Positions 1,442-37,106 of a stretch of 64,000 nucleotides of DNA are shown piece by piece (positions within the stretch are counted from its first letter, which is position 1; the number at the start of each line of letters is the position of its first letter). Source of the stretch: a virus; IMG/VR virus record IMGVR_UViG_3300035698_014029, positions 9,517 through 73,516 of that record; one strand, written 5' to 3'. The notes beneath the pieces were generated by a model. It worked only from the letters and a program-made list of their open reading frames with translations. It searched no databases and was not told the origin of the DNA. The translations under genes were made by a program, and so were the position numbers.

Positions 1442-2399
1442 TTTTCAAAATACTGAAATAAATTATTTTGAAAATTTATCAGGTAAGATGATTGTTCATC
1501 CGTTATTTGATCAAATTATGAATTTTACTAAAGCAGATGATGATAAATATAAACTTATCTATCAAACAGTAAATTTAATAAATGATAAAAATTATGTAGG
1601 TCAACATACTACAGATAATTTAGATGATGGTTATTTAGGATCTGGGTATAATTTAAAATTAGCTATTAAAAAATATGGGAAAAATAGTTTTAAAATTAGA
1701 TTTTGTTGTTTTTGCAATGATCAAGAAAATTTAGATAAAGCGGAAATTACTTATATTAAGTATTTTCAATCTTTAGATAAAGAAGGAGGTTATAATATAT
1801 TACCTGGAGGTAAGTTTTTTTTAAATGAAAAAATAAGAAAAAAATCAGAAAAAATACGTAAAAAAAGATTTGAAAGTGGAGAAATAGCTCCTTGGAATAA
1901 AGGTAAAATTGGAGTTTATTCTAAAGAAACTTTAAAAAAGATGTCTGAATCAAAAAAGGGAAATATTCAAACATCAGAGTCTAATTTAAAAAGAAGTTTA
2001 GCTTTAAAGGGAAGAATTGTGTTAAAAGAATCAATTGAAAAAGCAAAAGAAACAAGAATAAAAAATGGGACATATAAACAGTCTCCATCGGAAGAAACAA
2101 AAGAAAAACTTCGTCAAGCTAATTTGGGTAAAAAACAATCTCAACAAACTATTAATAAAAGAGTTGAAAAAAACAAAGGGAAAAAGCGAAATTCTAAACA
2201 ATTAGGTAATTTATCTAAAGGACAAAGAAAAAATCTAAAAAAAATAATTCAGAAAGATTTTGATGAAGATATAGTAAAAATTTGGAGTAATAGTTTTGAA
2301 GTTTGTGAATTTTATGTAAATTTTAATAAAACTGTATTATTAAGACAAACAAAATTAGGTAAAAAATATAAAGGATATATCTGGACATATGGAAAATAA
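1431..2399 (+). CDS. GIY-YIG homing endonuclease with NUMOD3-type repeats
   Basis: LIYQTVNLINDKNYVGQH...YLGSG...GYN; repeats SKETLKKMSESKKG, SEETKEKLRQANLGKK; likely start ATG 1431 (MENNF). Confidence 0.9.
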   Translation: MENNFQNTEINYFENLSGKMIVHPLFDQIMNFTKADDDKYKLIYQTVNLINDKNYVGQHTTDNLDDGYLGSGYNLKLAIKKYGKNSFKIRFCCFCNDQENLDKAEITYIKYFQSLDKEGGYNILPGGKFFLNEKIRKKSEKIRKKRFESGEIAPWNKGKIGVYSKETLKKMSESKKGNIQTSESNLKRSLALKGRIVLKESIEKAKETRIKNGTYKQSPSEETKEKLRQANLGKKQSQQTINKRVEKNKGKKRNSKQLGNLSKGQRKNLKKIIQKDFDEDIVKIWSNSFEVCEFYVNFNKTVLLRQTKLGKKYKGYIWTYGK

Positions 2400-3207
2400 T
2401 AAATTTAACTTTTGTATTCCTATAAATGATGAATGGATACAAAAAGCATCTAAAGAAAAAGGTGATAAAAAATATGATAATATGTTTGTGTCAGGAATTG
2501 GAAGTGACAATTCTGAAGATACTGATGAAGAAATTTTAGAACCAAATGGGTTTATTTTAGATAAATTTTTAAAATCTGGAATTGTTAATTGGGAACATAT
2601 GTCTAAACAAAATCCTGAAGCTATAATAGGAGAACCAGTAGAAGCTAAAGTAGAAAATAATAAATTTTATTTAAAGGCAAAATTATATAAAGAAGTTCCT
2701 TTAGCGAGAAAAGTATGGGATGCTATGATTAATATGAAAAAATCTGGCTCTACAAGACAGATGGGATGGAGTATTGAGGGGAAAAAATTAAAAAAAGATA
2801 TTATAAATCCTAAAAAAATTACAAAAGCATTAATTACTGGGATATGTTTAACAATGATGCCAAAAAATTCTAATACGTGGGCAGATATAGTTAAAGGAGA
2901 ACAAAAAAAAGATTATATAGAATTTGATGATGATGCAAATGGTGGTAAAATTTATTTATTAGATATTACAACTCCAAAAGGAGTAAGATTAACAATAGAT
3001 AAAGATTTTAATATAAAGATAGATAAAGCGATGACTACTGACTCTGCAAGAGCGTTAATTCCTGAGAGTTTAGATAATAAACTTGTTAATTTAAAAGGGA
3101 AAACGTTTACAAAAAATATAAAAGAGTTGAGTAATTATCATAAATCTACAGGGTTTAATAAAGACACTTTAAAAAAAATTAAGAAAAAAATTAAGAATTA
3201 TTTTTAA
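2389..3207 (+). CDS. Prohead protease
   Basis: SGIGSDNSEDTDEEIL, VNWEH, IIGEP, MGWSIEG, GICLT..P motifs of phage prohead proteases; upstream of scaffold and capsid. Confidence 0.85.
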   Translation: MENNKFNFCIPINDEWIQKASKEKGDKKYDNMFVSGIGSDNSEDTDEEILEPNGFILDKFLKSGIVNWEHMSKQNPEAIIGEPVEAKVENNKFYLKAKLYKEVPLARKVWDAMINMKKSGSTRQMGWSIEGKKLKKDIINPKKITKALITGICLTMMPKNSNTWADIVKGEQKKDYIEFDDDANGGKIYLLDITTPKGVRLTIDKDFNIKIDKAMTTDSARALIPESLDNKLVNLKGKTFTKNIKELSNYHKSTGFNKDTLKKIKKKIKNYF

Positions 3208-3248
3208 TTGGTCTAAATAAGCATTATATTTATAGCGATTATAAATAA
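3198..3248. promoter_or_regulatory. Two tandem 10-3-10 palindromes (Fur-box-like)
   Basis: ttatttttaa-ttg-gtctaaataa (3198-3220) and atatttatag-cga-ttataaataa (3226-3248). Confidence 0.45.
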
Positions 3249-3284
3249 GATATTTGGTATAGATTATGGAAGATAAAAACATAA

Positions 3285-4097
3285 ATGGAAGATAATACTA
3301 AGAAGCCAGAAGCAAATCAAGATGAAATAAGAAAAAACTTGGCTGCTCTTGATTTCTCAAAAGAAGAAATTGATGATCTTTTAGTAAAAGCTGAAGCATC
3401 AAAATCTGAAGAAGAAATCGAAAAGGGTTCTAAAAAAGATCTTGAAGATTTAGAAAAAGCTTACAAAGAAATAGAAACCAAAGAGGGAGAAGTTGAAAAA
3501 GCTTATAAAACAGATAAAGAAGGTATTTCTGGAGAAAAAGAAGCCATGATGGCTAAAATGAAGGAAAAAGGATATAAACCTGCTGTTGAAAAAGCTGAAA
3601 TTGATGAGCTGAATAAAACTAAGATTGAAAAGAAAGAAGAAATCGTTAAAAGTGAAGATCAGGAAAAGAAAGATGAATTAATAAAAGGTCTTTCTGAAAA
3701 AGTTGAAGAATTAGAAACTAAAGCTAATAATACTGAAGAAGTAGATGAACTTAAAAAGTCTATAGGAAGTGTTACAGAGTCTATTTCTGAAATTAAAAAA
3801 ATAGTAACTAGTATTGCTAATACTCCTAATGGGATGAAATCTCATCAATATAGTCAGTTTTTAGAAAAAGCTGAAGATAATGAACTTAATAACGATAATA
3901 AAAAAGTTATTTCTTTAAGAGATAAAGAAACACTTACTAAATCTTTAGAAAATTTAGCTGATGCTACTGATGATGTAGATAAAAAAGCTTTTTTAGAAAA
4001 AGCTATAATGGATTATAATTCTAATCCAGAATCTCAATTATCAGGTCAACTAGTTTCTGAAATCCAAAAGGCTGAGAATTGTACGTTTACAGCTTAA
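3285..4097 (+). CDS. Capsid scaffolding protein
   Basis: E/K-rich coiled coil between protease and capsid, with many [ILV]xK[ASG] motifs. Confidence 0.75.
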   Translation: MEDNTKKPEANQDEIRKNLAALDFSKEEIDDLLVKAEASKSEEEIEKGSKKDLEDLEKAYKEIETKEGEVEKAYKTDKEGISGEKEAMMAKMKEKGYKPAVEKAEIDELNKTKIEKKEEIVKSEDQEKKDELIKGLSEKVEELETKANNTEEVDELKKSIGSVTESISEIKKIVTSIANTPNGMKSHQYSQFLEKAEDNELNNDNKKVISLRDKETLTKSLENLADATDDVDKKAFLEKAIMDYNSNPESQLSGQLVSEIQKAENCTFTA

Positions 4098-31652: not shown

Positions 31653-32309
31653 ATGGCGAAATTGCAGGCTCCGTACATTATTGTAGCAGATACAGAATCA
31701 GGAGGTTTACCGAGTAAGACCAAATTAGCTTTTCATAATATAGCTTTAGTAGAAATAGCTGCTGTAGTTATTGATGTAGCAAAATTAGAAATAGTTGAAA
31801 AAGCTAGTTGGTTAATAAAACCTTATCAAGATGATTTGATATATTCAGAAGGTGCTTTTAATGTACATGGTATATCTAAAGAAATGTTAGAAGAAAAAGG
31901 TGAAGATTTAAAAGATGTTTATAAATATTTTAAAGACATTCTTAAAAAATATAAATCTGGTAGATGGTTGCCTGTATTAGCTGGACATAATTTTGAAAAA
32001 TTTGATATTCCTTTTATACAAGGGATGTTTGGAACATTTAAAGACGATGTGTATGAATATATACAAGGAATAGAAGAAACATTAAGATGGTCTTCTTATA
32101 AATGGAAAGAATCTACTAATTATAAATTAGGAACAGTTTGTGCTAATATGGGTGTTGAATTAACAGAAGCTCACAGAGCTTTAAGAGATACAGAAGCAAA
32201 TGCTGAACTTATGATTAAGTTTATACAATTATTAAGAAACGAAACTATTCAAAAAGAAGATAGGTTTCGAGATAAATTTAAAATGGATGCTAAATTTGAT
32301 AAATTTTAA
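31653..32309 (+). CDS. DEDDh 3'-5' exonuclease (DnaQ/epsilon-like)
   Basis: ADTESGGL, AGHN..FD, AHRALRD. Confidence 0.9.
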   Translation: MAKLQAPYIIVADTESGGLPSKTKLAFHNIALVEIAAVVIDVAKLEIVEKASWLIKPYQDDLIYSEGAFNVHGISKEMLEEKGEDLKDVYKYFKDILKKYKSGRWLPVLAGHNFEKFDIPFIQGMFGTFKDDVYEYIQGIEETLRWSSYKWKESTNYKLGTVCANMGVELTEAHRALRDTEANAELMIKFIQLLRNETIQKEDRFRDKFKMDAKFDKF

Positions 32310-33973
32310 TGAGTAGAGCTAGTTTAAATTATAAACAGCTAACCCAAGTTCATGAAGTAACAAATAGAATCATAAATTCCTTACCGGATAAAACCTTAAA
32401 TCAAGTATTAGATTCATATGATAGAGATTTAAAGGAATTTGTAGATGATTTATATAAAACAGTTTATAAAGTATTACGATTAAATCATTATTCTCCTAAG
32501 ACTAATTATTCTTATTTAGATGGTTTAGAAGAAACAATAGATGAAGTTTTAAAGAAAACTAATTATAATTATTTTAAAACTGTTTGCTTACCTGAATTTG
32601 AACAAAGCTGGCGAAATATAGAATGGGGAAATCTTGTAATGCTTTATGATTATTTAGTCATAATTGCTTCAAGATCAAGTGGTAAATCATATGAATTTGG
32701 TAAAAAAGCATATCCTTTATGGAGAATGTATCGATATGATAATCCTTCTACATTAGCTCCAGGTGTTACTAAAAGAGAAAATCAATTAAATAAATGGGGT
32801 GTATTAATGTCAAATACTATGACATTAACTAAAAAACTTCTAGAAGAGCTTGTAGAAGAGATTAGAATGAATGATTTAGTTGGTTATAAACTTAGACCAG
32901 ATCATCTTTCTGATTTAGGTAAAGAAAGTATGAGGTCTAAAAATGGTTGTATAATTGATTTAAGAACTAAAGATGCAGGACCAAGGGGATTACACCCTGG
33001 ATGGATAGCAATGGATGATATTTTAGATAAATCAGTTATATATTCTAAAGAACAAAGAGAAAAGTTACGAACAGAGCTGTTTTATGCTGAAACTTTACCT
33101 GCGTTAGAGCCTGGAGGTCAGATGATTGTCTCGGGGACCCCATTTTCCTCTGACGATTTATATTATTATTTAAAACAAGATAAAAGATTTAGAGTATTCG
33201 AATACCCAGCTATATATCCAGATGGTAAATTATTAGCACCGGAAAGACTTTCTTATAAAAGACTGATGGAAGAAAAAGAATCTTTAGGATCTCTTATTTT
33301 TTCTAGAGAGTATTTAGTAAAGCCAATATCAGATGCAGCATCTATTTTCCCTTGGGAATTTTTAAGAAAATGTTACAATTCAGATTTAGGATTAGTAGAG
33401 AATATAGAATCATTTCCTATTAAATTAAAAAGAGTAGTAGTTGGTTGTGACTTTGCTATATCAGCAAATATTGGAGCAGATTACAGTGTGTTTACAGTTT
33501 GGGGTTTAAGTGAAGATAATAAATTTTATCTTTTACATATGTTTAGGGATAAAGGGTTAAGTGCAGAAAGACAAGTAGCTCAAATTATTAATATTAATAG
33601 TAGATTTAAACCTAATATTATTGTAGCTGAGGATAATGGTTTCCAAAGAACAATTATTGAAATGGTAAGGTCTCGTGGAGTTAAAAACATACAAGGATTT
33701 ACTACTGTATCTAATATTAAGAAAGATTTATATTCTGGATTACCTAGTTTAGCAGCTCTATTTGAAAGAAGAGATATAGTACTTCCAACAGGAGATGAAA
33801 AGAGTAAAAGAGCTATAGAAACTATGTGTGGAGAATTTAATTCAATTACTTTTATTGAAGAAACTTCGAAACTTGAGTCGGTATCAGGTAAGGATGATTG
33901 TGCTATGTCTTCATTTTTTGCCTTATATAATCTAAGAGAAAAATCTAATTCATTAAAAATTCATTATATATAA
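32309..33973 (+). CDS. Terminase large subunit
   Basis: ASRSSGKS Walker A, MDD Walker B, GTP motif III, nuclease GCDFA...DYS...DDCAMS. Confidence 0.9.
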   Translation: MSRASLNYKQLTQVHEVTNRIINSLPDKTLNQVLDSYDRDLKEFVDDLYKTVYKVLRLNHYSPKTNYSYLDGLEETIDEVLKKTNYNYFKTVCLPEFEQSWRNIEWGNLVMLYDYLVIIASRSSGKSYEFGKKAYPLWRMYRYDNPSTLAPGVTKRENQLNKWGVLMSNTMTLTKKLLEELVEEIRMNDLVGYKLRPDHLSDLGKESMRSKNGCIIDLRTKDAGPRGLHPGWIAMDDILDKSVIYSKEQREKLRTELFYAETLPALEPGGQMIVSGTPFSSDDLYYYLKQDKRFRVFEYPAIYPDGKLLAPERLSYKRLMEEKESLGSLIFSREYLVKPISDAASIFPWEFLRKCYNSDLGLVENIESFPIKLKRVVVGCDFAISANIGADYSVFTVWGLSEDNKFYLLHMFRDKGLSAERQVAQIININSRFKPNIIVAEDNGFQRTIIEMVRSRGVKNIQGFTTVSNIKKDLYSGLPSLAALFERRDIVLPTGDEKSKRAIETMCGEFNSITFIEETSKLESVSGKDDCAMSSFFALYNLREKSNSLKIHYI

Positions 33974-33986
33974 ATAAAAATTTGGT

Positions 33987-35735
33987 ATGATAAAATTTAA
34001 AAATGTAGTAAGTTTATTTGATGGACATAGTGGAGGAAGGATTGCATTAGATATTCAAGGTATAAAATATGAGAATTATTATTCTAGTGAAATAGATAAA
34101 TATGCAATACAGGCTTCTGATGCTGTTTTCCCAGATAATATAAAACTTGGGAATGTTATTAAATTACGAAGATATTTAGAAAAGCCATATTTATTTGAAA
34201 GAATGTATAATTGTTCTTTTGTAAAAAAAGAGAATAAACAATTAATATTACATTGTACTGATTTATTATTAGACGGAGTAGATTTATTAATGGGAGGTTC
34301 TCCTTGTACTGGATTTTCATTTGCAGGTAAACAATTAAATTTTAATGATTCGCAAAGTAAATTGTTTTTTGAATTTATTAAAATAAAAAATATTTTAAAC
34401 CCTAGGCTTTTTCTTCTTGAAAATGTAAGGATGAAAAAGGAATATTATGAAGCTATTTCTAAATACGTAGGAGTTGAAGCAATAAAAGATGAAAAAGGTA
34501 AACCTTATATTAATTCTGCTTTAGTAAGTGCTCAAAACAGGATGAGATCGTATTGGACTAATATTGAGGGAGTTAAACAGCCAGAAGATAGAGGTATTTT
34601 ATTAAAAGATATTTTAGAAGATGAAAATTCTATAGATGAAAAATATTACATAAAAGGAGTTAAGTTTGATAAATTCTTAAGTGAATTAAAAGGGAGATAT
34701 CTTAAGTTAAATAAAAAAGGTAATTTAAAGCAGAATCAAGATAAGGCTTCTACTTTAACTGGGGGAGGTCATTCAGGGGGCAATCATTCAGATATGGATA
34801 TTCTTCTTGTTGATTACTCACATCAAAATGAAGGGTTGCGTTTTTATGAAGGGAAAGCCCCTACTTTAAATGCTAGAGACTATAAAGAGCCTAGATGTAT
34901 TTGTGTAGCACAAAGAGGTCGAAATATAGTTGATGGGAAAAGAAAGGATTATAATGGAGCCCCAACTGAACAACGATTAGAGCCAAATCTTGACGGCAAA
35001 ACAAACTGCTTAACTACCGTAGGTAAAGATAATTTAGTATTAATATCTAATTCTAAAAAAAATACAATTACAGATAAATCTATATATTATGAAAAGGATA
35101 CAAGAACCCTTACGATATTGCAAGAATTGCAAGAAATTATTAGAGAGGAAAAGAATGGGGAATGGGCGGTGGCAATCTATGCACGATTTTTTAAGGATGA
35201 CCTACTGTTCAAAAGAATGTATGAAAGTTTCATTTTCAAAGAACAAAAAGGATGTAGTTACAGAGAGGACGAGCAGAGAGAGGGCACAAAAAATGATAAA
35301 GCCGTCTCTATGTGTGAAATGCAAAGTGAAGAATGGACTGGACGTCCATCATATAGATATGAATCCTCTAAACAATTCATTAAACAACTTGCAGAGGTTA
35401 TGTCGGAGCTGTCACTTGAAGATTCACAGACCGAAAAAAATATGTACCGTTTGTGGAAAACCACAAAAAGGGTTAGGTTATTGCGAAAAGCATTATCAAC
35501 GATTCAAGAAATATGGAGACCCATTAAAATTGAAACAGAAGAAATCAACATAGATAAAAATAGTTATAAACTAAGAAGGTTAACAGTAAGAGAATGTGGT
35601 CGTTTACAGACCATTCCTGAACCTATTTTAGATAAAATTTTAGCAAGTGGAGTATCAAATAGTCAACTTTACAAAATATTTGGAAATGGTTGGAATGTAG
35701 AAACAATAGCTCATATATTTAGTTTTATAAAATAA
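33987..35735 (+). CDS. C5-cytosine DNA methyltransferase with long variable region
   Basis: SLFDG (I), GGSPC (IV), ENV (VI), QNR.R (VIII), RRLT..EC.RLQ (IX), GNGW (X). Confidence 0.9.
   Translation: MIKFKNVVSLFDGHSGGRIALDIQGIKYENYYSSEIDKYAIQASDAVFPDNIKLGNVIKLRRYLEKPYLFERMYNCSFVKKENKQLILHCTDLLLDGVDLLMGGSPCTGFSFAGKQLNFNDSQSKLFFEFIKIKNILNPRLFLLENVRMKKEYYEAISKYVGVEAIKDEKGKPYINSALVSAQNRMRSYWTNIEGVKQPEDRGILLKDILEDENSIDEKYYIKGVKFDKFLSELKGRYLKLNKKGNLKQNQDKASTLTGGGHSGGNHSDMDILLVDYSHQNEGLRFYEGKAPTLNARDYKEPRCICVAQRGRNIVDGKRKDYNGAPTEQRLEPNLDGKTNCLTTVGKDNLVLISNSKKNTITDKSIYYEKDTRTLTILQELQEIIREEKNGEWAVAIYARFFKDDLLFKRMYESFIFKEQKGCSYREDEQREGTKNDKAVSMCEMQSEEWTGRPSYRYESSKQFIKQLAEVMSELSLEDSQTEKNMYRLWKTTKRVRLLRKALSTIQEIWRPIKIETEEINIDKNSYKLRRLTVRECGRLQTIPEPILDKILASGVSNSQLYKIFGNGWNVETIAHIFSFIK
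35089..35553 (+). CDS. HNH endonuclease overprinted in the +1 frame inside the methyltransferase gene
   Basis: HHIDMNPLNNSLNNLQRLCRSCHLKIH plus CxxC fingers and C-terminal C..C...YC.KHY.R...YGDP. Confidence 0.8.
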   Translation: MKRIQEPLRYCKNCKKLLERKRMGNGRWQSMHDFLRMTYCSKECMKVSFSKNKKDVVTERTSRERAQKMIKPSLCVKCKVKNGLDVHHIDMNPLNNSLNNLQRLCRSCHLKIHRPKKICTVCGKPQKGLGYCEKHYQRFKKYGDPLKLKQKKST

Positions 35736-35744
35736 AAATTTGGT

Positions 35745-37106
35745 ATGGATCAATATTTAACTGATAAATTTTTACAAGAATTATTTAAACTTTGTTTTGT
35801 AAAAAAAAGTATTTTAGATATAGTTAGTGTTAATTTAAAATACGAATATATTCCTAATGAACTAATGAGTTATAAAAAAATACTCAAATCATTAGTTAAT
35901 CATTATAAAAAATTAGGAACATCTCCATCTATAGGTTATGTAAGTAATGAAATAAGAGGAGATGATAATGTTCAAAGAATTTTAAGTGAAATACAAGAAT
36001 GTGAACTTGTAAATTCAGATGAAACGTTAAGTGCTTTAGAAACCTTTATAAGGCACGTTAAGTTTGAAATACTTCATACAAGGGTAGCAGAAACCTTTAA
36101 CAATGGGAATCAAAATGATGCTATTAAAACATTAGCAGAAGAAAGCCAAGAAATTAATGATTTCTCTATATTAAAAAATACAAATGCTTTTACAAATGTA
36201 ATGGAAGGGTTCTGGGATGACTTAGAACAAATAAATAATGACGAAAATACAGTATTCCATGAAAAAGTTCCATTCGGCATAGACCCATTAGATGATATTA
36301 CTTATGGAGGATTAGATAAAGGAGACACTGCTTTATGGATTATGCCATCAGGAGTAGGTAAATCTACAGCTTTAAGATATACTGGTATGTGGGCTGCTAA
36401 GTTAGGATATGGAGTTTTACATGTTCAACTGGAAGGAAGTAAAAGAGAAGCTAAGAAAAAATATAATCAAATTTGGACAGGATTAAAATACAATGAAATA
36501 AGTACTGGTAAAATAAGTGAAGAAAAACTTGAAAAGATAAAAAAATCTTATAATAAATTTAAAATTAGAAATAGAGATGTTCAATTATATTCTTTTGAAC
36601 AATTTGAAGAAGCCTCTATGAAAGATATTAGAGATTTAATTTTAAAATATTTTAAGCAATTTGGTAAAATACCTGATTTATTAATAATTGATTATTTAGA
36701 ACTTGTAAATCCTGGAGATGGTTTTAGATATAATCCTACTGATCCTGCAGCTATAAAAGCTAAATTAACAGGGAATGCTCGAAGAATGAAGAATTTATGT
36801 TTAGAGTTTCCAGAATTAAGAGTTTTAACTGCTACTCAAACAAGTAGTGCTCCTTGGACTAAATCTGATGAAACAAAAGTTATTACTAGACATGATACTA
36901 AAGGAGATAAGAATTTAGTTGATGCATTTTCCTATGTATTTACTGGAAATCAAACTGATACAGAGTATAAGAATAGAATAATGCGTATTTATATAGATAA
37001 ACTTAGAAATTATAAAGCTAAACAGATTGTAAAAATAGCTACAGAATACGATACAGGAATGCTTTATGATCGAAGAAGAAGTATAGCTATTAATAAAGCA
37101 GCATAA
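35745..37106 (+). CDS. Replicative helicase (DnaB family)
   Basis: MPSGVGKS, QLEG, IIDYLE, TATQ, KLRN. Confidence 0.9.
   Translation: MDQYLTDKFLQELFKLCFVKKSILDIVSVNLKYEYIPNELMSYKKILKSLVNHYKKLGTSPSIGYVSNEIRGDDNVQRILSEIQECELVNSDETLSALETFIRHVKFEILHTRVAETFNNGNQNDAIKTLAEESQEINDFSILKNTNAFTNVMEGFWDDLEQINNDENTVFHEKVPFGIDPLDDITYGGLDKGDTALWIMPSGVGKSTALRYTGMWAAKLGYGVLHVQLEGSKREAKKKYNQIWTGLKYNEISTGKISEEKLEKIKKSYNKFKIRNRDVQLYSFEQFEEASMKDIRDLILKYFKQFGKIPDLLIIDYLELVNPGDGFRYNPTDPAAIKAKLTGNARRMKNLCLEFPELRVLTATQTSSAPWTKSDETKVITRHDTKGDKNLVDAFSYVFTGNQTDTEYKNRIMRIYIDKLRNYKAKQIVKIATEYDTGMLYDRRRSIAINKAA

What the first reader, a model, noticed from the sequence alone, without database searches (positions are those of the whole stretch)
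35089..35553. Intact HNH endonuclease overprinted inside an uninterrupted methyltransferase reading frame
Seen: a 154-aa ORF with a canonical HNH motif and several zinc fingers lies wholly in the +1 frame of the C5 methyltransferase, between the variable region and motif IX. The methyltransferase frame has no stop across these 155 codons despite the AT-rich genome, and reads as non-domain filler there. No intein termini or obvious intron core are present. Inference: this is a homing endonuclease that avoids disrupting its host gene by dual coding in a tolerant loop instead of by splicing. Alternatively it is a compact nested restriction-modification pair.
Basis: partly seen in the sequence, partly recalled or inferred. 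Interest (0 to 1): 0.78.

Follow-up and report, generated by a model that had tools for sequence, protein, structure and literature searches.

The report
Hidden HNH gene inside methylase gene
A phage cytosine-methylase gene carries a 516-base mobile insertion that its own reading frame reads straight through without a stop, while a second frame of the same DNA encodes an intact HNH nuclease; this arrangement was first described in 2025, and here it turns up as a separate, widespread family.

Summary
The C5 methyltransferase ORF (33987-35735, 582 aa) contains a 154-aa HNH ORF (35089-35553) in its +1 frame. Synonymous shuffling of the HNH codons predicts 9.35 stops in the methylase frame. None is observed, and 0 of 1000 shuffles reach zero.

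The segment is an insertion. Close methylase homologues lack residues 353-524 (nt 35043-35558). The same HNH family sits in the same phase inside stop-free C5 methylase frames in 20 of 21 related loci, at GC 0.27-0.66 and in many bacterial phyla. A free-standing relative, L007, has 25 stops in that frame.

Selection acts on the HNH protein. The methylase-frame peptide evolves almost freely apart from stop avoidance. It folds with low confidence (pLDDT 32-55), against 88 for the HNH. No intron or intein signature was found.

Best reading: an unspliced, read-through homing-endonuclease cassette. This is a sequence-unrelated member in a different phase. Translation, cleavage and methylase activity remain untested.

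The parts
33987..35735 (+). C5 cytosine DNA methyltransferase ORF, 582 aa, read without a stop through the insertion
   Evidence: ORF. PF00145 E 3.2e-29. Motifs I, IV, VI, VIII, IX and X located. AlphaFold2 core pLDDT above 90 for residues 1-220, about 80-86 for 300-350 and above 94 for 530-582.
33987..35042 (+). Methyltransferase part before the insertion: motifs I-VIII and the target-recognition region, ending in TTVGKDNLVL
   Evidence: Alignment with insert-free homologues P0274, P0284 and others. Coordinates.
35043..35558 (+). The inserted cassette: 516 nt, 172 codons of the methylase frame (residues 353-524), with no stop in that frame. The edges are good to about +/-3 codons. GC is 0.341 against 0.287 for the rest of the gene.
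   Evidence: Absent from P0274, P0284, P0278, P0281 and other close homologues; present in P0122-P0124. Coordinates and GC. pLDDT 32-55. No PHROG family for this frame.
35041..35043 (+). TAA stop in the HNH frame at the left edge of the cassette. The HNH frame is open only from 35044.
   Evidence: frame +0 open 35044..35550.
35089..35553 (+). HNH endonuclease ORF, 154 aa, ATG to TAG, in the +1 frame of the methyltransferase. It starts 46 nt after the left edge of the cassette and ends 5 nt before the right edge.
   Evidence: AlphaFold2 mean pLDDT 88.4. Residues 55-117 align to HNH nucleases: 4h9d Z 5.9, 6ghc Z 5.6, I-HmuI 1u3e Z 4.7.
35559..35735 (+). Methyltransferase part after the insertion: motif IX (RRLTVRECGRLQ) and motif X (GNGWNV), then the stop
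   Evidence: pLDDT 94-98.

Best explanation
A 516-bp selfish cassette sits between two codons of a phage C5 methyltransferase gene, in the loop between the end of the target-recognition region and motif IX. The cassette is essentially one gene, a 154-aa HNH endonuclease with three zinc-binding modules, read in the +1 phase of the host gene.

The cassette has no stop in the host phase. Ribosomes translating the methylase therefore read straight through it, add about 172 poorly structured residues to a surface loop, and go on to motifs IX and X. The methylase stays whole without RNA or protein splicing.

The HNH protein is made separately from its own internal start codon. Where the host organism uses Shine-Dalgarno sites, one is present in front of that start.

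By analogy with other homing endonucleases, the HNH cuts or nicks insert-free methylase alleles, and repair copies the cassette in.

Shown here:
- the two ORFs and the insertion edges;
- stop avoidance specific to the host phase;
- purifying selection on the HNH protein, with almost none on the host-frame residues;
- patchy presence among close methylase relatives.

Inferred:
- translation of both frames;
- retention of methylase activity;
- the cleavage target and the homing itself.
For: 1. Stop avoidance. The window has 0 host-frame stops against 9.35 expected, and 0 of 1000 synonymous shuffles reach zero. The same holds in 19 further loci: expected means are 2.4-12.9, and the fraction of shuffles with zero stops is 0.000 in 16 of the 20 embedded rows and 0.001-0.044 in the other 4. 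The third frame carries the expected number of stops. The free-standing relative L007 has 25 host-frame stops against 27.4 expected.

2. Same phase everywhere. The host frame is open across the whole HNH match in the window and in 20 of 21 related loci, at GC 0.27-0.66. The hosts are C5 methyltransferases. One is the annotated 'DNA-cytosine methyltransferase' gp45 of Staphylococcus phage CUB-EPI_14, whose record has no nested CDS.

3. Which frame is selected. Mean pairwise amino-acid identity is 0.495 in the HNH frame, 0.273 in the host frame and 0.268 in the untranslated third frame. Nucleotide identity by HNH codon position is 0.59, 0.62 and 0.41. In the closest pair (L006/L083, 82% nt identity), three classes of change were counted per possible change:
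- synonymous in HNH but altering the host-frame residue: 0.192;
- altering HNH but synonymous in the host frame: 0.040;
- altering both: 0.037.
Five further pairs show the same pattern.

4. It is an insertion. Homologues at 54-60% identity (P0274, P0284, P0278 and others) join KDNL.. directly to ..Y.LRRLT. On a tree built without the insert columns, the window's methylase sits in a supported clade of 23 rows, 22 of them insert-free. At least 3 changes of state are forced (the rows were chosen non-randomly).

5. Folding. HNH mean pLDDT is 88.4, with 109 of 154 residues at 90 or above. The host-frame insert scores 32-55 while the methylase core exceeds 90.

6. Independent initiation. A stop in the HNH frame lies 0-48 nt upstream of the start in most loci. 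Ten of 20 loci have an anti-SD duplex of -6 kcal/mol or better at -18..-4, and 9 of 20 are in the best 5% of windows of their own host ORF. The window's phage uses no Shine-Dalgarno site at any gene: 44 ORFs have a mean of -0.47, no better than background.

7. No splicing signature. Rfam finds no intron family in 33800-35900 at E <= 1. Pfam finds no HINT or intein domain in the 582-aa protein, nor in 9 other methylase host ORFs.

8. Precedent. PMC11855218 describes the same architecture.
Against: Nothing here shows expression. No RNA run holds the sequence, so splicing, internal initiation and read-through translation are all untested.

The window's HNH start has no recognisable ribosome-binding signal. 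That is uninformative for this phage, but it is also not positive evidence.

No insert-free allele of this same phage was seen in the four metagenome runs laid. They are contigs only and cannot show absence.

The host frame is not wholly free. A Trp column (TGG) is kept in 17 of 20 sequences, which requires T at an HNH wobble position even in GC-rich genomes. Host-frame identity also exceeds the synonymous-shuffle expectation (0.273 against 0.231, sd 0.003). So a function of the read-through peptide is not excluded.

The tree uses rows picked by similarity, so its gain/loss counts are illustrative.

The HNH structural matches are modest (best Z 5.9). Foldseek gave no hit at E <= 0.001, and the family profile finds no PDB sequence at E <= 0.01.
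Confidence: 0.75

Rival explanations
1. The segment is removed after all, either as an unrecognised self-splicing intron or by protein splicing. The HNH would then be an ordinary intron- or intein-associated homing endonuclease.
For: Distant relatives of this HNH do sit in the +1 frame inside a genuine intein. In the terminase large subunit of Brucella phage Pr, Intein_splicing covers residues 218-506 and the nested HNH ORF is annotated in the record. Locus L078 shows the same. An intein also needs a stop-free host frame, so stop avoidance alone does not exclude protein splicing.
Against: No Rfam intron hit at E <= 1. An intron would not need a stop-free host frame, yet all 20 embedded copies tested have one. 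No HINT or intein Pfam domain is found in the window's protein or in 9 other methylase hosts. The residues at the insert edges are not conserved nucleophiles or His-Asn across loci. The model of the insert is low-confidence helices, not a beta-rich HINT fold.
Confidence: 0.07
2. The HNH is not selfish but serves the phage or the methylase. It could be a nested restriction-modification or addiction pair, or a packaging-associated HNH, since the gene lies directly after the terminase large subunit.
For: The HNH is under clear purifying selection across very distant hosts. It is always associated with C5 methyltransferases. In the window it lies 1.1 kb downstream of the terminase large subunit ORF at 32309-33973. 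One host-frame Trp is conserved beyond what the HNH needs.
Against: The same HNH family sits in methylases of different subfamilies at three different positions: before motif IX, between motifs IX and X, and before motif X in a subfamily without a canonical motif IX. One cognate specificity is therefore unlikely. The closest methylase relatives lack it. In L012 and L093 the HNH frame carries a stop while the host frame stays open, as expected for a decaying selfish gene. The terminase neighbourhood is not shared by the other loci, for example CUB-EPI_14.
Confidence: 0.1
3. The HNH is made only as a fusion: a programmed +1 ribosomal frameshift from the methylase frame gives a methylase(N-terminal part)-HNH protein.
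For: The two frames are co-directional and overlap for the whole HNH. No Shine-Dalgarno site precedes the window's ATG.
Against: A stop in the HNH frame lies just upstream of the start: TAA at 35041-35043 in the window and 0-48 nt upstream in most other loci. That leaves only a few codons for a shift. Ten of 20 loci have a strong Shine-Dalgarno site in front of an ATG or GTG. Free-standing family members exist (L007).
Confidence: 0.03
4. Chance or artefact: the methylase is a disrupted pseudogene and its frame is open across the HNH gene by accident or through an assembly error.
For: None found.
Against: 0 of 1000 shuffles give an open frame in the window, and the result repeats in 19 independent loci. 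Motifs IX and X are intact downstream. Identical contig pieces from four runs of four studies cover both junctions: X1 34811-35136 and 35171-35585, X2 34880-35198, X4 35447-35664.
Confidence: 0.01

Closest known systems
ShiLan domain / hidden out-of-frame HNH in mycobacteriophage DNA methylases (Arsenault, Gosselin & Gogarten, Genes 2025, PMC11855218). I read the abstract, introduction, results, discussion, figure legends and tables, not the repository files. For the earlier paper PMC9957025 I saw the search listing and found passages only.
   Same: - An insertion in a phage DNA methylase that is absent from close relatives.
- No stop in the methylase frame.
- An HNH ORF with flanking zinc modules in another frame, nearly co-extensive with the insertion. 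It starts 18 bp in and ends within the last 4 bases there; here it starts 46 nt in and ends 5 nt before the edge.
- No intron or intein signature.
- The host-frame peptide is predicted with poor confidence.
- A disjunct distribution taken as homing.
   Different: - No detectable sequence relationship. tblastn of two family HNH proteins against 50,697 phage records gave no Mycobacterium phage at E <= 1e-3 or E <= 0.1. The host-frame peptide hit only Staphylococcus phage CUB-EPI_14.
- The phase differs. [quoted passage not shown]
- The start is ATG, often with a Shine-Dalgarno site, not a GTG with proposed leaderless initiation.
- HNH length is 154-164 aa against 195 aa.
- The paper's original-frame BLASTP found 9 hits, all in phages. 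This family's host-frame segment is found in 160 protein clusters at 50% identity and in genomes of many bacterial phyla.
Inteins with a non-canonical, out-of-frame homing endonuclease (bioRxiv 10.1101/2025.01.02.630785, passages found by term search only), and the annotated intein plus nested HNH in Brucella phage terminase large subunits (GenBank NC_019447.1)
   Same: A homing endonuclease ORF is overprinted on a host-frame segment that must stay free of stops. Distant relatives of this very HNH family (about 29% identity) sit in the +1 phase there too.
   Different: In those cases the read-through peptide is flanked by a HINT splicing domain and is presumably removed by protein splicing. 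The window's insert has no such domain.
Free-standing homing endonuclease genes that split a host gene into pieces. The phage Aeh1 mobE/nrdA case is recalled from memory and was not looked up here.
   Same: An HNH-type selfish gene invades a conserved gene without an intron or intein.
   Different: There the host gene ends up as two ORFs. Here the host frame is continuous. Loci L086, L088 and L090 show both styles side by side: methylase pieces, extra free-standing HNH ORFs, and this embedded element.
Rickettsia palindromic elements inserted in frame in protein-coding genes (recalled from memory, not looked up here)
   Same: Selfish DNA is tolerated inside ORFs because it adds a stop-free, surface-exposed peptide.
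   Different: Those elements are short, non-coding in their own right and carry no endonuclease gene.

Membership tests
HNH endonuclease (PF01844 / PF13392, beta-beta-alpha-metal fold) | Catalytic His...Asn...His/Asn motif with Cys4 zinc ligands | tested here: met
   H87, H88, N96, N100, C75, C78, C105, C108, H109 and H113 are invariant in 28 aligned family members including the window.
HNH endonuclease (PF01844 / PF13392, beta-beta-alpha-metal fold) | Profile match at the family's curated threshold | tested here: inconclusive
   The window protein scores below the cut-offs (HNH_3 20.8 against 24.8; HNH 18.3 against 21.4). All 28 relatives match PF01844 at E <= 0.01, and PHROG 1271 'HNH endonuclease' matches at E 3.6e-14. 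The family profile finds no PDB sequence at E <= 0.01.
HNH endonuclease (PF01844 / PF13392, beta-beta-alpha-metal fold) | Beta-beta-alpha-metal fold | tested here: met
   In the model (pLDDT 88.4), residues 55-117 align to HNH nucleases. Thirteen of the top 14 rows are HNH/His-Me nucleases: 4h9d Z 5.9 (rmsd 3.4, 63 aligned), 6ghc Z 5.6, 1u3e I-HmuI Z 4.7. The Z values are modest. Foldseek found nothing at E <= 0.001.
C5 cytosine DNA methyltransferase (PF00145) | Conserved motifs I, IV (Pro-Cys), VI (ENV), VIII (QxRxR), IX and X in order, plus a profile match | tested here: met
   PF00145 scores 102.8 bits against a cut-off of 22. All six motifs were located. Motif IV reads PCT where 90% or more of homologues have PCQ.
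ShiLan-type read-through insertion with a hidden HNH (kind) | Insertion absent from close homologues of the host methylase | tested here: met
ShiLan-type read-through insertion with a hidden HNH (kind) | No stop in the host frame, beyond chance | tested here: met
   0 observed against 9.35 expected; 0 of 1000 shuffles.
ShiLan-type read-through insertion with a hidden HNH (kind) | HNH ORF in another frame, nearly co-extensive with the insertion | tested here: met
   The ORF at 35089-35553 lies inside the insert at 35043-35558.
ShiLan-type read-through insertion with a hidden HNH (kind) | Not spliced at the RNA or protein level | not testable with these tools
   Indirect evidence only: no Rfam intron, no HINT domain, and stop avoidance implies read-through. 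No RNA run is available.
ShiLan domain (sequence family of PMC11855218) | Sequence homology to the ShiLan or Pacc40 insertions | tested here: not met
   No Mycobacterium phage record was hit by the HNH frame at E <= 1e-3 or by a GC-rich family member at E <= 0.1, nor by the host frame at E <= 1. The phase also differs: +1 here, 'third frame' in the paper. The ShiLan sequence itself was not fetched, so a very distant relationship is not excluded.
Intein | HINT splicing domain, N-terminal Cys/Ser, C-terminal His-Asn followed by Cys/Ser/Thr | tested here: not met
   No Intein_splicing or HINT hit in the window protein. The same search finds these domains in L078 and in the Brucella phage terminase. 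The edge residues are not conserved across loci.
Group I / group II intron | Ribozyme core recognisable by a covariance model; the host frame is normally interrupted | tested here: not met
   No intron family at E <= 1 in 33800-35900. The host frame is uninterrupted in all 20 embedded copies tested. An unknown ribozyme type cannot be excluded by Rfam.
Type II restriction-modification pair | The nuclease cleaves the unmethylated form of the site that the methylase modifies | not testable with these tools
   Only indirect evidence against: different methylase subfamilies and insertion positions, absence from close relatives, and decaying HNH copies.

The most novel reading that the evidence does not exclude
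This is not a curiosity of two mycobacteriophage genes. It is a large, old lineage of HNH genes whose -1 frame has been kept free of stops, so that the cassette can live in phase inside any tolerant loop of a protein. That would make it a third lifestyle for homing endonuclease genes, beside introns and inteins. The lineage is phase-locked: +1 in all 20 embedded close relatives, in 7 more distant methylase copies, and in the intein-borne relatives in terminase genes. It occupies at least three sites in C5 methyltransferases and spans phages and many bacterial phyla. The one conserved host-frame tryptophan, and the small excess of host-frame conservation, may mean that the read-through peptide has been shaped to fold back on itself so that the methylase still works.
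Probability: 0.5. Interest if true: 0.65.

Novelty: new member of a known kind. Interest (0 to 1): 0.5.

Why it matters
Homing endonuclease genes are thought to survive inside essential or useful genes only by riding on a splicing element, or else by sitting between genes. A cassette that simply avoids stops in the host phase needs no ribozyme and no protein-splicing domain. The cost is passed to the host protein as a floppy loop.

The data here do three things:
- They show the solution is common. Gene callers and annotators miss it: the one isolate phage that carries it has no nested CDS in its record.
- They show that selection acts on openness of the host frame, not on its residues.
- They give clean natural controls: a free-standing copy full of stops, and decaying HNH copies whose host frame is still open.

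Practically, methylase annotations of 550-650 aa with an unexplained 170-aa segment before motif IX can be re-read. The cassette also marks a permissive insertion site in C5 methyltransferases. No experiment exists yet for any member of the kind.

Tried and rejected
- **RNA evidence.** The look-up of sequencing runs listed no RNA holder: 9 DNA runs, all labelled salt lake metagenome. Expression and splicing could not be examined.
- **Population polymorphism.** Contigs of 4 runs were laid on 33900-35900. No listed joint skips 35043-35558. The listed joints lie within 34024-34961, apart from one that skips 34245-35788, and have short sides of 21-40 letters, so they probably come from other organisms' methylase motifs. 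Contigs cannot show absence, so this says nothing about insert-free alleles.
- **Sequence search of solved structures** with the HNH family profile gave 0 hits at E <= 0.01. Foldseek on the whole HNH model gave nothing at E <= 0.001. Only the all-against-representatives structural alignment gave consistent, modest HNH matches.
- **Terminal repeats or target-site duplication.** Only a 9-nt tandem (35117-35134), a 10-nt pair and AT-rich palindromes at 35031-35052 were found. Nothing marks both edges.
- **Link to the ShiLan family.** No hits. I could not fetch the ShiLan genome because the paper's text gives no accession. Its repository and supplements were not seen and may hold a survey that already includes C5 methylases.
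- **Host-frame conservation as a sign of a second functional protein.** Mostly rejected. Host-frame identity equals that of the untranslated third frame (0.273 against 0.268). The conserved Leu, Gln and Gly columns follow from conserved HNH Cys, Asn and Lys codons plus stop avoidance.
Full report
**What is there**

The window is part of a 73.5-kb IMG/VR virus record of about 27% GC. ORF 33987-35735 (+, 582 aa) lies between a terminase large subunit ORF (32309-33973) and a DnaB-like helicase ORF (35745-37106). It matches PF00145, the C5 cytosine methylase family (E 3.2e-29). It has motifs I, IV, VI, VIII, IX and X in order.

ORF 35089-35553 (+, 154 aa) lies wholly inside it in the +1 frame, since the offset is 1102 = 3x367+1. 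It keeps every invariant residue of its family: the His-His...Asn...Asn...His set and three Cys-rich metal sites.

Its own Pfam scores are below the curated cut-offs. All 28 aligned relatives match PF01844 at E <= 0.01. PHROG 1271 'HNH endonuclease' matches at 3.6e-14. A confident model (mean pLDDT 88.4) aligns over residues 55-117 to HNH nucleases, with modest scores: 4h9d Z 5.9, EcoKMcrA Z 5.6, I-HmuI Z 4.7. Foldseek gave nothing at E <= 0.001, and a sequence-profile search of the PDB gave nothing.

**More than chance**

I shuffled synonymous codons within the HNH ORF, which keeps its protein and codon usage.
- The methylase frame then carries a mean of 9.35 stops, and none of 1000 shuffles is stop-free. 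The real sequence has 0.
- The third frame has 18 stops against 16.6 expected.

So the open methylase frame is a selected property and not a by-product of the HNH sequence.

**It is an insertion**

The N-terminal 364 residues find thousands of C5 methylases: 7992 of the 8000 scored candidates reach E <= 0.001, and the best 120 are listed, most of them 320-480 aa.

In an alignment of 15 sequences, insert-free homologues at 54-60% identity (P0274, P0284, P0278 and others) join ...KDNL(3-4 residues)Y.LRRLT... directly. The window, P0122, P0123 and P0124 instead carry about 165-175 extra residues there.

In window coordinates the insert is residues 353-524, nt 35043-35558 (516 nt), good to about +/-3 codons. 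The HNH ORF starts 46 nt inside the left edge and ends 5 nt before the right edge. A TAA in the HNH frame sits exactly at the left edge, at 35041-35043. The insert's GC is 0.341 against 0.287 for the rest of the gene.

**The same thing elsewhere**

The HNH protein finds 130 proteins at E <= 0.001 among 139 candidates, most of about 163 aa and 45-55% identical. Scans of viral contigs and species-representative genomes returned loci with near-full-length matches. The annotated phage collection gave one more, Staphylococcus phage CUB-EPI_14.

*Host frame open.* In the window and in 20 of 21 such loci, the frame in which the HNH is +1 is open across the whole HNH and belongs to a long ORF of 271-890 codons. 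Locus GC ranges from 0.27 to 0.66. By their record titles, the genome loci come from Pseudomonadota, Verrucomicrobiota, Bacillota, Spirochaetota, Acidobacteriota, Actinomycetes, Planctomycetota and others.

*The hosts are C5 methylases*.

*Three insertion positions* (read by eye; the regular expression missed some motif IX variants):
- just before motif IX in the window and 15 loci;
- between motifs IX and X in L009 and L010, whose inserts are identical;
- before motif X in L008, L091 and L092, which belong to a subfamily without a canonical motif IX.

*Shuffle test.* I repeated it on the window plus 20 loci, leaving out L010 as a duplicate of L009. There are 0 host-frame stops in 20 rows, against expected means of 2.4-12.9. 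The fraction of stop-free shuffles is 0.000 in 16 rows and 0.001, 0.004, 0.010 and 0.044 in the four GC-rich ones.

*Natural control.* The exception, L007, is a free-standing copy between small ORFs in a phage replication module. It has 25 stops in that frame, with 27.4 expected.

*More distant HNH matches.* Sixteen were examined:
- 8 are again embedded in the same phase with no host-frame stop. Seven are in PF00145 ORFs (L093 by its open frame only; it was not scanned). One, L078, is in an intein-bearing terminase gene.
- 8 are free-standing or fused in frame, with 11-20 stops in that frame.
- In L012 and L093 the HNH frame itself has a stop while the host frame stays open.

The host-frame peptide of the window finds 160 protein clusters at E <= 0.001 in a 1.84-billion-protein library.

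**Which frame is under selection**

Over 144 aligned codon columns of 20 embedded copies:

| Measure | Value |
|---|---|
| Mean pairwise amino-acid identity, HNH frame | 0.495 |
| Mean pairwise amino-acid identity, host frame | 0.273 |
| Mean pairwise amino-acid identity, untranslated third frame | 0.268 |
| Nucleotide identity at HNH codon positions 1 / 2 / 3 | 0.59 / 0.62 / 0.41 |

- Synonymous shuffling of HNH codons lowers host-frame identity only to 0.231 (sd 0.003).
- Synonymous shuffling of host-frame codons collapses HNH identity to 0.212.

In the closest pair (L006/L083, 82% nt identity), I counted changes per possible change:
- synonymous for the HNH but altering the host-frame residue: 0.192;
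- altering the HNH but synonymous in the host frame: 0.040;
- altering both: 0.037.

Five further pairs give the same order. Altering the HNH protein is therefore about five times disfavoured. Sparing the host-frame residue brings no measurable benefit.

Most 'conserved' host-frame residues follow from other constraints:
- Leu from Cys TG- codons of the HNH.
- Gln from a forced AAC-AAY pair, because AAT-AAY would create TAA in the host frame.

One column does not follow in this way. A host-frame Trp (TGG) is kept in 17 of 20 sequences, which requires T at an HNH wobble position even in GC-rich genomes.

The model agrees with this picture. The methylase core has pLDDT above 90, while the insert scores 32-55 and appears as low-confidence helices. 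The host frame matches no PHROG.

**Splicing**

- Rfam finds no intron family at E <= 1 in 33800-35900. The one hit is a eukaryotic lncRNA model at 23.6 bits against a threshold of 60.
- Pfam finds no HINT or intein domain in the window protein or in the 9 other methylase host ORFs scanned. The same search does find inteins in L078 and in the Brucella phage terminase.
- Residues at the insert edges are not conserved.
- The strongest argument is indirect. Selection against stops in the host phase makes sense only if ribosomes read through the segment and the downstream motifs IX and X are needed.

**How the HNH is probably made**

In the HNH frame a stop lies 0-48 nt upstream of the start in most loci. 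That leaves little room for a frameshift fusion.

Ten of 20 loci have an anti-Shine-Dalgarno duplex of -6 kcal/mol or better at -18..-4, and 9 of 20 are within the best 5% of their own host ORF. The window has none. But its 44 ORFs of at least 150 aa show no Shine-Dalgarno signal either: mean -0.47 against a background of -1.30, with 5% at or below -6 in both. The absence is therefore uninformative. L089 has no canonical start.

**Mobility**

I built a maximum-likelihood tree of 61 methylases with the insert columns removed. There were 31 filled rows, chosen by insert similarity, and 30 empty rows, chosen by N-terminal similarity, so this is not a random sample.
- The window sits in a supported clade of 23 rows, 22 of them empty.
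- P0122 sits in another clade of 7 rows with 6 empty.
- Supported branches force at least 3 changes of state.

This fits repeated gain or loss, as in a homing cycle, but it does not prove homing.

**What is known**

The architecture was published in February 2025 as the 'ShiLan domain' of mycobacteriophage methylases. That paper describes a stop-free insertion, a hidden 195-aa HNH in the 'third frame', no intron or intein signature, a poorly predicted host-frame peptide and a disjunct distribution. It reports a second case in Pacc40 gp60 and no experiments (PMC11855218). A 2025 preprint from the same group reports out-of-frame endonucleases inside inteins (passages only). Searches with other word combinations found nothing further.

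The window's element is of the same kind but is not a detectable sequence relative. It differs in these respects:
- the phase is +1;
- it starts with ATG;
- it belongs to a much larger family tied to PF00145 methylases.

The paper's repository, and any survey tables held only there, were not seen.

**Verdict**

The novelty is that of a new member of a known kind, and a large, phase-locked family. It adds the result that the host frame is selected for openness and not for sequence. All functional steps remain inferred: translation of both frames, an active methylase, the cleavage target and homing.

Noticed in passing
L097 (Brucella phage Pr, NC_019447.1) 1483-4029 and 2306-2992; L078 586-3069 and 1133-2077: Distant relatives of this HNH (about 26-29% identity) lie in the +1 frame inside an intein within a terminase large subunit gene. 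The GenBank record annotates both CDSs ('intein present', 'intron-encoded'). Pfam finds Intein_splicing at residues 218-506 of the terminase and HNH in the nested ORF. The same phase as in the methylases suggests the stop-free -1 frame is an old property of the lineage.
   Followed up: partly
L086 404-3719; L088 1189-3785; L090 923-3689: In three genome loci the methylase that carries the embedded HNH is itself in pieces, with N-terminal motifs in separate or shifted ORFs. Another free-standing HNH_3/AP2-like ORF lies beside or between the pieces. These could be real genes-in-pieces, pseudogenes or MAG assembly errors; this was not resolved.
   Followed up: partly
L012 1935-2258; L093 158-424: The HNH frame has one internal stop while the enclosing methylase frame stays open. 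These look like decaying endonuclease genes in a still-translated host.
   Followed up: no
window 33965-33986 and 35723-35744: The methylase and the next gene (DnaB-like helicase) are both preceded by the same 13-nt leader ending in ...ataaaaatttggt directly before the ATG. The phage's genes have no Shine-Dalgarno signal at all (44 ORFs), as in hosts that do not use one. By their labels, the runs that hold the sequence are salt lake metagenomes.
   Followed up: partly
window 34146-34283 (methylase residues about 54-99): A second, smaller extra segment (about 30 aa...RRYLEKPYLFERMYNCSFVKKENKQLILHCTDLLLDG) lies between the early motifs and motif IV. It is shared with P0273, P0275, P0276 and P0279 but absent from most homologues. 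It contains no ORF in another frame of 40 aa or more on the + strand.
   Followed up: no
window 34302-34310 (methylase residues 106-108): Motif IV reads Pro-Cys-Thr where 90% or more of aligned homologues have Pro-Cys-Gln. The effect on activity is unknown.
   Followed up: no
L001 (Staphylococcus phage CUB-EPI_14, ON325435.2) 1600-3405 and 2759-3241: This is the only isolate phage among 50,697 records that carries this element. gp45 is annotated as a 601-aa DNA-cytosine methyltransferase with no nested CDS, although a 160-aa HNH ORF with a strong GGAGG site lies in its +1 frame. A separate annotated 'putative HNH endonuclease' (gp47) lies two genes downstream.
   Followed up: partly
window 35117-35134: An exact 9-nt tandem duplication (ATTGCAAGA twice) encodes the first CxxC knuckle of the HNH in one frame and LQELQE in the methylase frame.
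   Followed up: no
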